From IMG/VR virus record IMGVR_UViG_3300037313_000492, positions 1,058-65,057 of that record: 64,000 nucleotides of DNA, one strand, 5' to 3'. Below the pieces are notes generated by a model. That model was not told where the DNA came from. It did not search any database and worked only from the letters and a program-made list of their open reading frames with translations. Both the position numbers and the translations under genes were made by a program. The stretch comes from a virus. Lineage: Duplodnaviria; Caudoviricetes. Positions within the stretch are counted from its first letter, which is position 1; each line of letters opens with the position of its first letter. This document shows, in pieces, positions 31,537-34,925 of the stretch.

Positions 31537-32376
31537 ATGGGCGGACCTACTCCTCAGATTAAGCACTACAACCCGCCATCAATGCCAGACTATCAGAAGG
31601 CTGATATTCCGGGATTGAACCAGCAGGCTATTGGGTATGATGCAAATGCCTATCAGCTTTCCGATGCAGACTTTAGGCGCAGGAATCCGCAGATAGTCCA
31701 AGCGACCAAGAATTTCAACAACGCTGCGCTGGCCGACTCGCAGGGGCAAATCACGCCCCAGATCAATAATGAACTGGTAAACGCGGGAATCTCGTCTTCC
31801 CTAAATGCTTTTGGAGATGGATCAATTGCTCCCAATTCAGCGGCAGAGGCGAATGTTGCCCGCAACCTAGGGGTTGGCGTGCTTGATTTTCAGGACCGGA
31901 TGCGCAATCGAACAGCGAACGATTTAATGACCTCCCAACAGCTTTATGGAGGCCAGCCGCGCACGTTTGGATTTGGGGGCGAGGGCGCGTTGCAATTAAG
32001 CCTCGCTAATCTGGCCGGTCAGAACAACTGGAACCAGGCGAACTACGCGTCTCAGGTTCAGGCTGGACAGTACAACTCCCAGATCGACGCCACGAACCAG
32101 AATGCTCGAGTCCAGAAATCCAACGGAACAACCGGCGCTATGGGCTCTGCTGTTGGCGCTGCCGCTGCCGCCGCTGCAATTTGCTGGGTTGCTAGGGAGG
32201 TTTACGGAGTGGATAGCCCAAAGTGGAAGCAGTTTCGCTCATGGCTGTTTAAATCGGCTCCTGTCTGGTTTGCGAGGTTGTATATCCTCCATGGCCGCTG
32301 GTTTGCCTCCTTCATTTCCTCAAAGCCTTGTTTGAAGTTTTGCGTGCGTTCGGGGATGGATTTGGCTATTGCTTAA
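31537..32376 (+). CDS. DNA ejection/pilot protein with C-terminal CWVAREVYG (CFI-box-like) domain
   Basis: Gln/Asn/Ala/Gly-rich body, Ala/Gly stretch, then CWVAREVYG..W..FR.WL...AP.WF..LY..HG. Confidence 0.65.
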   Translation: MGGPTPQIKHYNPPSMPDYQKADIPGLNQQAIGYDANAYQLSDADFRRRNPQIVQATKNFNNAALADSQGQITPQINNELVNAGISSSLNAFGDGSIAPNSAAEANVARNLGVGVLDFQDRMRNRTANDLMTSQQLYGGQPRTFGFGGEGALQLSLANLAGQNNWNQANYASQVQAGQYNSQIDATNQNARVQKSNGTTGAMGSAVGAAAAAAAICWVAREVYGVDSPKWKQFRSWLFKSAPVWFARLYILHGRWFASFISSKPCLKFCVRSGMDLAIA

Positions 32377-33643
32377 GGCAATGAGCATTCACTATCGAGA
32401 CCGGGAGTATTTCCAGTCTCACAAAAAGAAGCCTGACCCATCCGAGTTTCTTGAAACCCTGAGGCCGCATTTCAGGGAATACGAAATAACCAGAATCGGA
32501 AATATCGCGGGACTAGACCGAATCGGGGTTCCTGTTGTCACCGCCGTTAGGCCGAACTCGCCGACAATCTCCATCAATTCCGGCAAGGGGTTAACGCTTG
32601 ATGCTGCTAAGGTATCCGGCGCAATGGAGGCGCTGGAGGTGGCCATTGCGGAAAGGGCCGTTCTTCCAAGCTTCAGGGCTAAATACAGCGATTTAGCTGG
32701 GCGCATAGGCCAGATTCCAATTGAAAACCTGTGCCTTACGGATGGGAGCATATTTCACCCCGAGTTAGCGTTCGACTGGACGCCCGTTTGGGACATCGTG
32801 AACCAAACAAACGTGGCTGCTCCGCTGGAAATGGTGAGTATGGAAGTCACCGGGAACGTGGGATCGTACACGAATTCCCGGAAACTCCCTTGGTCCATGC
32901 TCTTGGCGTTTCAGATAGGAACCAATGGACTTGCGTCGGGCGCAACGTTCCTTGACGCGGTTTATCATGGGATAACGGAGGTAATCGAGAGGGACGCGTG
33001 GAGTTGCAGCCGATACGCCTTTGAAAAGCATGGCGTAAAGCCTCGCAGGGTGGACCTTTCAACGATTGAGGATAGCGACACCAAAACACTGCTAGGCAAG
33101 ATAGATTCCGCTGGCGTGAGTGTGTTCCTGTTCGATGTCACGACCGATATTGATGTTCCCGCGTATGGCGCGATGATCGTTGATCGCGAAGTCCCGGATT
33201 CAGGGGTTTTCCTTGGGTACGGATGCCATCTAAACCCGCCCATTGCCATGATCCGGGCCATTACAGAGGCGTGCCAGTCCCGCTGCTGCTACATCGCCGG
33301 GGCTAGGGATGACATGTACCGCCGTCAATTCATGGTCACTCGCAAGCAGCAAGACGCGATGGTGATCTTTGATGAGGTGCCGCCGTCCGTGGACGCCCGC
33401 GAGCGAGTGGATCAGTCAACCGATTCTGTTCATGGAGACATTGAACTCATCATTTCCAAACTCCAGAAAGCAGGCTTGAATCAAGTGCTTCTAGCTGACC
33501 TATCAACCCCTTCCGTGCCCATCTCCGTTGTGCGCGTTATCGTGCCAGGGCTAGAGGGATATATGTTCGAGAACTACACACCCGGATACCGTGCAAAAAC
33601 CCATCAAGATCGTTGTATTCCTAGGCCCGTCGCTGCCGATTGA
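32369..33643 (+). CDS. ycaO: YcaO-family protein (TfuA-associated type)
   Basis: ITRIGNIAGLDRIGVPV, SGKG-x4-AAKVSGAMEALE, TNGLASG, EVIERDA, AITEACQSR-x3-IAGARDD, VVRVIVPGLE motifs. Confidence 0.93.
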   Translation: MLKAMSIHYRDREYFQSHKKKPDPSEFLETLRPHFREYEITRIGNIAGLDRIGVPVVTAVRPNSPTISINSGKGLTLDAAKVSGAMEALEVAIAERAVLPSFRAKYSDLAGRIGQIPIENLCLTDGSIFHPELAFDWTPVWDIVNQTNVAAPLEMVSMEVTGNVGSYTNSRKLPWSMLLAFQIGTNGLASGATFLDAVYHGITEVIERDAWSCSRYAFEKHGVKPRRVDLSTIEDSDTKTLLGKIDSAGVSVFLFDVTTDIDVPAYGAMIVDREVPDSGVFLGYGCHLNPPIAMIRAITEACQSRCCYIAGARDDMYRRQFMVTRKQQDAMVIFDEVPPSVDARERVDQSTDSVHGDIELIISKLQKAGLNQVLLADLSTPSVPISVVRVIVPGLEGYMFENYTPGYRAKTHQDRCIPRPVAAD

Positions 33644-34925
33644 AAAGGCAAAGGAAATCCTTCCGGATGCCATTTACCTGCCGCCGTGCAAGCAGAGCGA
33701 TTTGCTTTCGGTGGCGACCATTGATCAGCCAAACGTCATCATCCTAATTGACGGGGTGTTCGGTCAGAGCCTTTCCGTCTGGCACAAGGAAATCCTTTTC
33801 GCCCTATCGAAAGGCATCCATGTCATCGGATGCTCGAGCATGGGCGCGATTCGGGCTGCGGAGTGTCACGAATTCGGAATGCAGGGATTCGGAAAGATAT
33901 TCTGGTGGTACAAGAACGGTAATTTCGAGGACGACGACGTCGTAGCCGTAACTCACTCTCATGAGGGTGTTCCAACGAGCCTGCCGATGGTCAACGTTGC
34001 TGAAACATTGGTTGCTCTTTTGGCCGAGAACGAGATCGAATGCGATGATTTCGAGCAAGTCCACGACGCTTTCAGGAAAGCATATTTCCCGGACAGAACC
34101 CTAAAGCTGGTTCCCAAATGGATGCGATCTAAGTTCCAGCGCAATTACGTGGACGTGAAGGGCGAAGACGCCGAGTTCACGTTGCGACATGTTAGAGACA
34201 ATCTCAGCAAGTACGAATCGCCTTTCGTTCCGGATTTCAAAATGCGGGAATGCCATCTATTCAATGCTCAATACGAACGCGACCGGCGCGTAAGGCGAAA
34301 CGATGGCGAGGTGCCGCTTGCCGAGATCGACGGGTTTCTTGCGCTGCAATCGGATCAATTCGAGCGAATCAACTGGGATGCGAATAACCGGCTCGCTGCC
34401 CGGGTATTGTCCGAGGTTCTGAATCTGGAACCAAGCGCAGAGGAATGGAGGGACGAAGCATCGCGATTTTGCGCTGTGCACGGCATTCGATGCGATGACG
34501 ATTTCTCTGCGTGGCTGAATCGCAACGATTTAAGCGGCTCTGAATTCAATCAACTGATGCTCGAAAACGCCAAAATCAGGAAACTACACAAGGCGTTGCA
34601 TGTGTCAAAAGTGGCGTGCCGGAACACGAAAACCGTTCTCGATCACCTGCGAATAACTGGTGAATATCCTTCTGTAGCAGATGAGGCTGCGTCTCAGGAA
34701 ATGGCCGTGAATAGGGTTGCTCCGGATTTCATGCACTGCCCAATTTCCAGGGAGCCAATCGAATCCATTCTGGAGGATCACTGTCAAGATATGGGGGTTG
34801 GCGTCCCATGCGATCTGAATACATGGCTACGAGAGTCCGGGTTTCAGAATGAGAACGAATTGCGGATTGCCCTTTCGAGAGTGGGGATTTTGAGGGGCAA
34901 CTTAAAATCTCAAAAAACCACTTGA
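33591..34925 (+). CDS. tfuA: TfuA-like protein
   Basis: VFLGPSLP, PP-x-KQSDL, IDGVF-x-QSLSVWHKEIL-x-AL, GCSSMGAIRAAEC-x2-FGM-x-G-x-G-x-IF, DDDVVAV motifs; directly downstream of ycaO. Confidence 0.93.
   Translation: MQKPIKIVVFLGPSLPIEKAKEILPDAIYLPPCKQSDLLSVATIDQPNVIILIDGVFGQSLSVWHKEILFALSKGIHVIGCSSMGAIRAAECHEFGMQGFGKIFWWYKNGNFEDDDVVAVTHSHEGVPTSLPMVNVAETLVALLAENEIECDDFEQVHDAFRKAYFPDRTLKLVPKWMRSKFQRNYVDVKGEDAEFTLRHVRDNLSKYESPFVPDFKMRECHLFNAQYERDRRVRRNDGEVPLAEIDGFLALQSDQFERINWDANNRLAARVLSEVLNLEPSAEEWRDEASRFCAVHGIRCDDDFSAWLNRNDLSGSEFNQLMLENAKIRKLHKALHVSKVACRNTKTVLDHLRITGEYPSVADEAASQEMAVNRVAPDFMHCPISREPIESILEDHCQDMGVGVPCDLNTWLRESGFQNENELRIALSRVGILRGNLKSQKTT

What the first reader, a model, noticed from the sequence alone, without database searches (positions are those of the whole stretch)
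32369..34925. Phage-encoded YcaO-TfuA thioamidation pair inside the DNA-ejection module
Seen: intact ycaO and tfuA motifs. ycaO overlaps the stop of the pilot-protein gene, and no small RiPP precursor, transporter or ThiS/ThiF gene lies nearby. Known: YcaO plus TfuA install backbone thioamides (methyl-coenzyme M reductase in methanogens, thioviridamide-type RiPPs), and a thioamide has been reported in E. coli ribosomal protein uL16. I do not know of a characterised phage example. Inference: the substrate is either a virion/ejected protein (protease resistance, stability) or a host protein such as a ribosomal protein, with sulfur supplied by the host.
Basis: partly seen in the sequence, partly recalled or inferred. 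Interest (0 to 1): 0.87.

Follow-up and report, generated by a model that had tools for sequence, protein, structure and literature searches.

The report
Phage thioamide enzymes beside injected protein
A family of soil and sediment phages keeps two enzymes, taken from bacterial peptide-antibiotic pathways, right behind a gene for a protein the phage probably injects into its host, and that protein ends in the kind of alanine-rich stretch such enzymes convert to sulfur-containing backbone links, which suggests a chemical maturation step not yet described for virus particles.

Summary
Real. Intact ycaO (likely start 32381) and a long tfuA lie in a complete 65,057-bp podovirus genome, not a chimera. 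The arrangement is a family trait: in 20 of 23 informative IMG/VR records (17 of 20 distinct) a pilot-like gene is followed by ycaO, with YcaOs only ~30% identical, one phage clade, trees tracking the tail nozzle, dN/dS 0.06-0.11. The cellular sister clade encodes, in the same slot before ycaO, Nif11-like RiPP precursors ending in an Ala-rich core. The phage pilot-like protein (31537-32376) ends in a matching uncharged Ala-rich segment (aa 200-215) before a dispensable CFI-box-CTERM-like domain. That segment is 47% Ala in YcaO-bearing phages versus 21% in 73 YcaO-less controls, and the one lineage that lost ycaO-tfuA also lost the GNAT-like gene and has Gly-rich or polar tails. Best reading (0.62): a captured RiPP maturase pair that thioamidates the ejection protein's hydrophobic C-terminus, using host sulfur carriers. 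No modification is shown; the co-variation rests on one loss event; ribosomal or MCR-type substrates fail their family tests. No phage example found in 10 literature searches.

The parts
28677..30503 (+). Tail nozzle/hub (P22 gp10 / T7 gp12-like), 608 aa; context marker
   Evidence: AF2 model matches podovirus tail nozzles, best 9nwi E 1e-19, P22 gp10 8eap E 2.7e-13, T7 9jyz E 6.6e-13
30525..31181 (+). Collar-domain tail fibre protein, 218 aa; context
   Evidence: PF07484 E 2.7e-12; tail PHROGs
31160..31531 (+). GNAT-like small protein, 123 aa; co-occurs with the ycaO-tfuA pair
   Evidence: Atlas neighbours carrying PF00583 at score 0.96-0.97, TM 0.63; directly before the pilot in 18 of 18 YcaO-bearing loci examined, 0 of 3 YcaO-less family members
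31537..32376 (+). Pilot/ejection-like protein, 279 aa; proposed substrate (precursor equivalent)
   Evidence: Directly upstream of ycaO in 20 of 23 informative records; Atlas neighbours 94-100% viral, nearest Pfam-bearing cluster P22_gp7 (13% of members, score 0.85, a lead only)
32134..32181 (+). Ala-rich uncharged core, aa 200-215, ending just before Cys216; proposed site of thioamidation
   Evidence: Only uncharged 15-mer with 6 or more Ala among the window's + strand ORFs of 60 aa or more; composition like bacterial precursor cores; the only 20 columns that align with the bacterial precursor profile, Cys to Cys (probability 7.6%, not significant as homology)
32182..32373 (+). CFI-box-CTERM-like C-terminal domain (CWVAR...), 64 aa; dispensable, probably removed
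   Evidence: 11 of 16 aligned copies match NF041770, best E 1.2e-5; the window's own copy did not hit. Absent in L064, whose pilot ends at the core and is still followed by ycaO-tfuA, and in P0289, P0292, P0293, P0298
32381..33643 (+). YcaO, 420 aa from ATG (424 aa from TTG 32369)
   Evidence: PF02624 E 1.3e-66; closest solved relative MJ1094 6PE3 E 6.5e-32; K69, E83, E86, N182, G183, E200, E203, R204, D205, R292, E296 invariant in 122 of 122 aligned sequences
33591..34925 (+). TfuA with C-terminal helical extension, 444 aa
   Evidence: PF07812 E 2.4e-38; model pLDDT 93; residues 5-209 = 6XP8, Z 26.4; residues 244-342 weakly SurA/trigger-factor-like, 3rgc Z 7.4; TIGR04500 E 0.0034 at 282-356

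Best explanation
An ancestor of this podovirus family captured the ycaO-long tfuA pair of a bacterial RiPP cluster whose precursor has a Nif11-like leader and an Ala-rich core, and the precursor's place was taken by the first DNA-ejection (pilot-like) protein. During late gene expression TfuA releases sulfide from a host thiocarboxylated carrier (established for archaeal TfuA; inferred here) and YcaO uses ATP to replace backbone carbonyl O by S at one or several positions of the Ala-rich segment (aa 200-215) (chemistry established for the family; site inferred). The TfuA extension probably holds the unfolded substrate (inferred from a weak SurA-like fold). The CFI-box-like domain is cut off at Cys216, leaving the modified segment as the C-terminus of the packaged protein (inferred). 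The thioamides would make this envelope-entering segment resistant to host proteases and more lipophilic during DNA ejection (inferred). Shown: intact genes, fixed gene order, one phage clade sister to the cellular precursor-associated clade, co-divergence with the nozzle, purifying selection, core composition. Not shown: any modification, binding, cleavage, or presence in the virion.
For: Gene order pilot-ycaO in 20 of 23 informative IMG/VR records, tfuA next in 18 of those 20, the other 2 end inside ycaO, although YcaOs are 28-32% identical to the window's. Phage YcaOs form one clade (FastTree 1.0, 84 sequences; SH-aLRT 97.1, 44 sequences) inside a 100-supported group with cellular long-TfuA YcaOs. 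In 23 of the 40 cellular loci fetched an ORF with an Ala-rich end lies upstream of ycaO, 4 of 10 tested with weak Nif11 hits. Last 15 residues: bacterial cores 59% Ala/14% Gly (n=23), YcaO-bearing phage pilots 47%/13% with 0.4% charged or amide residues (n=17), YcaO-less CWVAR controls 21%/26%/10% (n=73). 0 of 80 control loci have YcaO in their flanks, 57 with 3 kb or more downstream. The three YcaO-less family members form one nested clade (0.961), lack the GNAT-like gene and have Gly-rich (L063) or polar (L163, L164) tails. Mantel r nozzle/YcaO 0.75, pilot/YcaO 0.82, nozzle/TfuA 0.84, p 0.001. dN/dS ycaO 0.055-0.080, tfuA 0.078-0.112, nozzle 0.079-0.122 over 6 pairs. YcaO plus TfuA iteratively thioamidate Ala/Val/Met/Ile-rich cores, and thioamidated fragments are proposed to resist proteolysis (PMC8153245, passages).
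Against: No experimental datum. The YcaO-bearing pilots are all relatives and the negatives are one loss event, so the composition contrast is one evolutionary comparison; p-values overstate it. Controls also have Gly/Ala-rich segments, 4 of 73 pass my post-hoc rule, and only 7 of 23 bacterial cores pass it. L161 has the GNAT-like gene and a hydrophobic pilot tail but no ycaO start in the 259 nt left on its contig. With the stricter 6-Ala window the pilot core is the locus's hit in 14 of 17 YcaO-bearing loci listed is not reached: L056, L052 and L064 have no pilot hit, L053's best window lies elsewhere in the pilot, and four loci have a second protein with such a window. The pilot has no Nif11 leader, so how it is recognised is unexplained. 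The Arg after the second Glu of the first motif in MJ1094 is Val87 here, and Ser79 is Gly in the 17 other phage YcaOs. Adjacency in a late operon could reflect timing of expression, not substrate.
Confidence: 0.62

Rival explanations
1. The pair thioamidates a different phage protein (another ejection protein, tail fibre, capsid), and sits behind the pilot gene only because that is a tolerated, late-expressed slot.
For: The window phage has also inserted Y RNA-like genes and Ro60 just after tfuA, so the region takes cargo. A ~485-aa tail protein in L047, L049, L056 has an Ala/Thr-rich uncharged 15-mer. MCR and uL16 show that YcaO can act on folded proteins encoded elsewhere (PMC13063428 sections 5 and 28).
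Against: The genes after tfuA differ between subgroups while pilot-ycaO contact is kept; the ~485-aa protein has no detected homologue in the window; no other window ORF has such a segment.
Confidence: 0.12
2. YcaO acts at Cys216 of the pilot, forming a thiazoline or activating the preceding amide for cleavage of the CFI-box domain, rather than adding external sulfur.
For: Cys216 is invariant in 16 of 16 aligned domains; many bacterial cores also end in Cys; YcaO members can cyclodehydrate or proteolyse (PMC13063428 section 5).
Against: L064 has ycaO-tfuA but no Cys or CFI domain; 80 of 80 control loci have the same Cys domain without YcaO; TfuA is kept intact; azoline-type model TIGR03604 not reached (104.8 vs 219 bits); no ThiF/E1 partner.
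Confidence: 0.1
3. The pilot is a true giant RiPP precursor: the thioamidated core is cut out and acts as a free thioamitide-like peptide on the host (membrane or ATP synthase), not as part of the ejection conduit.
For: Core composition resembles bacterial precursor cores; thioamitides are potent small molecules (PMC8153245, passage).
Against: No protease, transporter or other tailoring gene identified beside the pair; no conserved cleavage motif before the core in the pilot alignments; the pilot body is conserved in YcaO-less relatives, so it has a role of its own.
Confidence: 0.08
4. Auxiliary host-takeover enzymes that modify a host protein such as ribosomal uL16.
For: E. coli YcaO thioamidates uL16 (PMC13063428); the window phage carries other RNA-related cargo (Ro60, Y RNA-like).
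Against: Not in the E. coli-type family (15.8 vs 700 bits); TfuA is not found near uL16-type YcaOs; fixed position in the virion operon and co-divergence with the nozzle; Ro60 is absent beside tfuA in the relatives annotated.
Confidence: 0.08

Closest known systems
Bacterial YcaO-TfuA clusters with Nif11-related precursor and GT4 glycosyltransferase (predicted in Malit et al. 2021, PMC8120280, Fig. 4D legend; seen here in L003, L005, L007, L011 and others)
   Same: Sister clade of YcaO; same long TfuA over its whole length, 35-43% identity; Ala-rich core encoded directly upstream of ycaO.
   Different: Precursor replaced by a 210-576-aa phage ejection-like protein without Nif11 leader; no GT4 after tfuA; inside a virion operon. 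The bacterial product is itself uncharacterised in the text I saw.
Thioamitides (thioviridamide, thiostreptamide S4; TsaH/TsaI)
   Same: YcaO plus TfuA pair; small-hydrophobic core; iterative thioamidation is the model (PMC8153245 passages).
   Different: No short precursor, no dehydratase/decarboxylase genes identified nearby; substrate would stay part of a large protein.
Methanogen McrA thioglycine system (YcaO TIGR03266, TfuA NF033432)
   Same: Closest solved structures (6PE3; 6XP8); protein substrate.
   Different: Below both equivalog cut-offs (228.7/365, 171.9/235.2 bits); TfuA twice as long; no MCR.
E. coli YcaO acting on ribosomal uL16 (Rice et al. 2026, PMC13063428)
   Same: Backbone thioamide on an intact protein.
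   Different: Different YcaO subfamily, TfuA-independent, recognises a folded loop.
Podovirus tail-ejection gene block (T7 gp12-gp13-gp14-16; P22 gp10, gp7, gp20, gp16; order recalled)
   Same: Nozzle fold, then a GNAT-like gene, then pilot-like and large Gln/Ala-rich genes.
   Different: A biosynthetic enzyme pair is built into the block; no YcaO or TfuA match among 50,697 GenBank phage records or in PHROGs.

Membership tests
YcaO superfamily (PF02624) | Full-length domain above the curated cut-off | tested here: met
   225.6 bits vs 25.7, profile 1-325 of 325
YcaO superfamily (PF02624) | ATP/Mg-binding Glu, Arg and SNG-type motifs (roles recalled; source papers not held) | tested here: met
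   E83, E86, N182, G183, E200, E203, R204, R292, E296 invariant in 122 of 122 and aligned with 6PE3. Departure: Arg after E86 is Val, as in most cellular relatives
TfuA (PF07812) | TfuA domain and fold, adjacent to ycaO | tested here: met
   131 bits vs 30; Z 26.4 to 6XP8; S83, G85, R88, K190, D193 invariant in 132 of 132 (their catalytic role is recalled, paper not held)
YcaO-TfuA thioamide synthetases | ATP- and sulfide-dependent O-to-S exchange on a peptide backbone | not testable with these tools
   Needs biochemistry or MS
Methanogen McrA thioamidation pair | Scores above TIGR03266 and NF033432 cut-offs | tested here: not met
   228.7 vs 365; 171.9 vs 235.2 bits
uL16-modifying (E. coli-type) YcaO | NF040716 membership, no neighbouring TfuA | tested here: not met
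   15.8 vs 700 bits; TfuA adjacent, against the statement in PMC13063428
Azoline-forming YcaO (SagD type) | TIGR03604 membership and an E1/ThiF-like partner | tested here: not met
   104.8 vs 219.25 bits; no PF00899 in the genome
Nif11-precursor YcaO-TfuA-GT4 RiPP clusters | Long TfuA and YcaO of that clade | tested here: met
Nif11-precursor YcaO-TfuA-GT4 RiPP clusters | Ala-rich core at the end of the ORF upstream of ycaO | tested here: met
   similarity is compositional, hhalign probability 7.6%
Nif11-precursor YcaO-TfuA-GT4 RiPP clusters | Short precursor with Nif11-like leader | tested here: not met
   No Nif11 hit on the pilot; leader columns do not align
Nif11-precursor YcaO-TfuA-GT4 RiPP clusters | GT4 glycosyltransferase after tfuA | tested here: not met
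   Next gene is TROVE/Ro60; cellular loci have GT4 (3 of 3 tested)
Thioamitide RiPPs | Dehydratase/decarboxylase genes for the AviCys ring | tested here: inconclusive
   None among the 10 neighbouring proteins scanned; the rest of the genome was not searched for them
Podovirus ejection module | Nozzle/hub fold upstream | tested here: met
Podovirus ejection module | 31537-32376 is a packaged, ejected pilot protein | tested here: inconclusive
   No Pfam, PHROG or PDB hit; P22_gp7 lead at 0.85 only
CFI-box-CTERM (NF041770) | C-terminal ~65-aa domain opening with a Cys motif | tested here: inconclusive
   11 of 16 copies hit at E up to 5, best 1.2e-5; window copy no hit; cut-off scores not shown

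The most novel reading that the evidence does not exclude
A whole phage family builds virions with a RiPP-matured part: the ejection protein is a giant precursor whose C-terminal hydrophobic segment is poly-thioamidated (perhaps also acetylated by the co-inherited GNAT-like protein), freed by removal of a CFI-box domain, and used to cross or anchor in the host envelope. This would be the third known thioamidated protein, the first viral one and the first with an iterated, natural-product-style modification inside a molecular machine.
Probability: 0.45. Interest if true: 0.92.

Novelty: new variant of a known kind. Interest (0 to 1): 0.82.

Why it matters
Rice et al. 2026 (PMC13063428, Introduction) know of only two thioamidated proteins, MCR and uL16. 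This family offers a third, with a predicted substrate, a 16-residue site and natural loss variants, testable by simple co-expression in E. coli. It would show RiPP enzymes recruited into virion assembly, add a chemical layer to how podoviruses get their ejection proteins past host proteases and membranes, and warn that +16 Da shifts in virion proteomics may be thioamides. It also gives a handle on two orphan parts: the C-terminal extension of long TfuAs and the CFI-box-like domain found on hundreds of phage proteins (578 confirmed stretches).

Tried and rejected
Structure prediction of YcaO + TfuA + pilot aa 60-225: no answer, score 0.00 in two runs, partner fold uncertain; not used as evidence either way.

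Single-sequence scan of IMG/VR with the window YcaO and the TfuA alignment found nothing; only alignments and neighbour genes reached the family. GenBank phages: no match. GTDB genomes: nothing with the pilot alignment; one 3.6-kb nozzle contig in a 'Ca. Angelobacter' MAG, too short to name a host. The metagenome scan gave 40 cellular-looking loci but not the contigs of the closest relatives P0002-P0004; that P0003/P0123/P0248, P0117/P0249 and P0141/P0251 share contigs is inferred only from equal longest-contig lengths.

The genome-wide log-odds scan used a wrong background (charged residues scored high) and was discarded; one search replaced it with a plain rule. The 17/17 versus 4/73 rule was set after seeing the data. 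Rows dropped: L070-L072 (same pilot as L069), L064 (no Cys anchor), L045 and L063 from the 17; 7 duplicate controls from the 80. HMM searches of PDB with nozzle and pilot alignments gave nothing. The TfuA extension was not folded alone; its SurA-like match (Z 6.7-7.4) is in the range of common arrangements. Sequencing runs: no RNA holder listed; run X2 holds only scattered pieces of a related strain. Chimera, recent bacterial insertion and decay were considered and rejected.

Literature: searches listed no paper on phage-encoded YcaO-TfuA (listings and abstract starts only; the library lacks most subscription papers). Seen: PMC13063428 abstract, sections 5 and 28, passages; PMC8120280 passages and part 2 of 6; PMC7550191, PMC6511847, PMC8153245, PMC5589413, PMC11951088 passages only. 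Supplements were closed and not requested; those of PMC8120280 and PMC6511847 may describe the Nif11/Ala-rich clusters in more detail. Residue roles in YcaO and TfuA and the T7/P22 gene order are recalled.

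
Full report
Observation. The two genes are there and intact. 32369-33643 covers the whole YcaO profile (E 1.3e-66) and 33591-34925 the whole TfuA profile (E 2.4e-38). The likely YcaO start is the ATG at 32381: the database call is 420 aa and the closest relatives begin there, so the overlap with the upstream stop is doubtful. The motif residues K69, E83, E86, N182, G183, E200, E203, R204, D205, R292, E296 are invariant in 122 of 122 aligned YcaOs, 15 of them from other phages, and align with the solved methanogen enzyme 6PE3; their ATP/Mg role is recalled, since the source papers were not held. 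Two departures: Val87 where 6PE3 has Arg (also non-Arg in most cellular relatives), and Ser79 is Gly in the 17 other phage YcaOs. The TfuA model (pLDDT 93) matches 6XP8 at Z 26.4 over residues 5-209; its extension resembles SurA/trigger-factor substrate-binding domains only weakly (Z 6.7-7.4; TIGR04500 E 0.0034).

Setting. The genome is one 65,057-bp record with 127-nt terminal repeats, rated complete. A separately assembled contig from a soil metagenome, possibly the same sample, spans 30000-38500 without a difference. GC does not shift over the pair. 'Pilot' rests on this order and a weak P22 gp7 lead; it has no family or structure hit. No ThiS or ThiF in this genome, no ThiS in 5 of 5 relatives searched.

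It is a family trait. Scans of IMG/VR with YcaO, pilot and nozzle queries gave 26 records with a pilot homologue. Three end too soon to tell (L045, L050, L161). Of the 23 others, 20 have ycaO after the pilot (17 of 20 after merging four near-identical ones) and 18 of those 20 have tfuA next; two end inside ycaO. Their YcaOs are 28-32% identical to the window's, yet with it and four database proteins of unseen context (P0002-4, P0117) they form one clade (1.0; SH-aLRT 97.1). Nozzle, pilot, YcaO and TfuA distances correlate (Mantel r 0.69-0.85, p 0.001, 16-19 taxa; driven largely by three deep groups). In four close phages dN/dS is 0.055-0.080 for ycaO and 0.078-0.112 for tfuA, like the nozzle's 0.079-0.122. 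GenBank phages and PHROGs hold no match.

Where it came from. The sister group is a cellular lineage with the same long TfuA. In 23 of the 40 cellular loci fetched an ORF of roughly 90-230 aa upstream of ycaO ends in an Ala-rich core, often followed by Cys; several of the rest lack upstream sequence or belong to more distant groups. Four of 10 tested give weak Nif11 hits and 3 of 3 downstream genes tested are GT4 glycosyltransferases. This fits the cluster type in the Fig. 4D legend of Malit et al. 2021 (PMC8120280), predicted from genomes.

The likely substrate. The phage pilot sits in the precursor's slot and ends in GAMGSAVGAAAAAAAI (aa 200-215) before Cys216, which opens a CFI-box-CTERM-like domain (11 of 16 copies hit NF041770). 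This is the only uncharged 15-mer with six or more Ala among the window's + strand ORFs. The bacterial precursor profile aligns to the pilot profile only over these 20 columns, Cys to Cys, at a probability (7.6%) that does not prove homology. The Cys domain is common in phages (578 confirmed stretches); none of the 80 best loci has YcaO in its flanks (57 with 3 kb or more downstream). The 15 residues before the Cys are 47% Ala, 13% Gly, 0.4% charged/amide in 17 YcaO-bearing pilots, 21%, 26%, 10% in 73 distinct controls, and 59%, 14%, 8% in 23 bacterial cores. The domain is dispensable: L064's pilot stops at the core and is followed by ycaO-tfuA, and four database homologues stop at the same place, which suggests the mature protein ends at the core. 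Three family members lack ycaO after the pilot, one of them a complete 74.3-kb genome with no YcaO anywhere. On a nozzle tree rooted on a distant outgroup they form one clade (0.961) nested among YcaO-bearing lineages, lack the GNAT-like gene found in 18 of 18 YcaO-bearing loci, and have a Gly-rich (L063) or polar (L163, L164) tail.

Limits. That is a single loss event, so the contrast is not statistically independent. Controls are Gly/Ala-rich too. More distant CFI-less pilots also end in hydrophobic Ala-rich tails and their YcaO status is unknown; L161 is one such, with no ycaO start in its last 259 nt. With a strict six-Ala window, three of 17 YcaO-bearing relatives show no pilot hit, and four have another protein with such a window. 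The pilot lacks the Nif11 leader, so recognition is unexplained. Nothing here shows a thioamide, binding, cleavage or packaging.

Mechanism. By established chemistry, TfuA frees sulfide from a thiocarboxylated ThiS-like carrier and YcaO phosphorylates the backbone carbonyl oxygen and exchanges it for sulfur (PMC13063428; PMC5589413); the pair works iteratively on small hydrophobic cores, and the products are proposed to resist proteases (PMC8153245). I infer that the phage pair does this to aa 200-215 of the pilot during late infection with host sulfur carriers, that the Cys domain is removed, and that the modified tail is the part that enters the host envelope at ejection. Confidence 0.62. 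Rivals: another virion protein 0.12; chemistry at Cys216 0.10; a released peptide 0.08; a host protein 0.08. The ribosomal reading fails its family test (15.8 vs 700 bits; TfuA absent from uL16-type loci).

Verdict. It works like a RiPP thioamide synthetase and descends from the Nif11/Ala-rich RiPP lineage, but it is not a member of those clusters (no short leader-bearing precursor, no GT4), nor of the MCR, uL16 or azoline families. Ten searches of the paper library listed no phage example. New variant of a known kind, interest 0.82; if the modification is confirmed on the virion protein, about 0.92.

Noticed in passing
window 34926-35286 and 35286-36593: Three tandem Y RNA-like units sharing GTGGCG...GTTACTTC motifs (by eye), the middle one matching YrlA below its cut-off (24 bits; folding z -2.9), followed by a TROVE/Ro60 gene. 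ARAGORN's tRNA-His at 35042-35115 is probably this tRNA mimic. Not seen beside tfuA in the relatives annotated.
   Followed up: partly
window 31160-31531: GNAT-like gene present in 18 of 18 YcaO-bearing loci and absent in 3 of 3 YcaO-less family members; L163 and L164 have an unrelated gene there (cupin-like by eye, untested).
   Followed up: partly
window 32182-32373; L081-L160: CFI-box-CTERM-like domain with invariant first Cys caps hundreds of phage pilot-like proteins; homologues without it stop just before the Cys, suggesting a cleaved processing module. No paper with the term in the library.
   Followed up: partly
L003:1134-4137, L005:6729-11848, L008, L009, L011, L012, L033, L036: Widespread bacterial cluster: Nif11-like precursor with core after a conserved 'VEWV' motif, YcaO, long TfuA, GT4 glycosyltransferase; product apparently uncharacterised.
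   Followed up: partly
L020, L023, L028, L031 upstream of ycaO: Freshwater loci with ~200-aa acidic Asp/Gly/Ala-repeat precursor-like ORFs ending in an Ala run and Cys.
   Followed up: no
window 19456-19520: DUF3800-VIII RNA motif above its gathering score (65.2 vs 40.2 bits), upstream of the probable capsid gene.
   Followed up: no
window 39106-44505: 1799-aa protein with an ART-PolyVal ADP-ribosyltransferase domain at aa 1395-1571, probably a large ejected polyvalent protein.
   Followed up: no
window 10541-11854 and 14352-18675: A glycosyltransferase-like hit (phrog_34859) and several neighbours that look like glycosyltransferases by eye but had no PHROG hit (16539, 17902).
   Followed up: no
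L165; L045 record: Host hints: a family nozzle gene on a 3.6-kb contig in a 'Ca. Angelobacter' MAG (may be misbinned) and one family record classed as provirus.
   Followed up: no
window 20065-21372, 5250-7580, 56699-58504: Probable capsid, portal and terminase (by size, order and eye) have no PHROG hit at E 0.001: a divergent podovirus family of 64-78 kb genomes.
   Followed up: no
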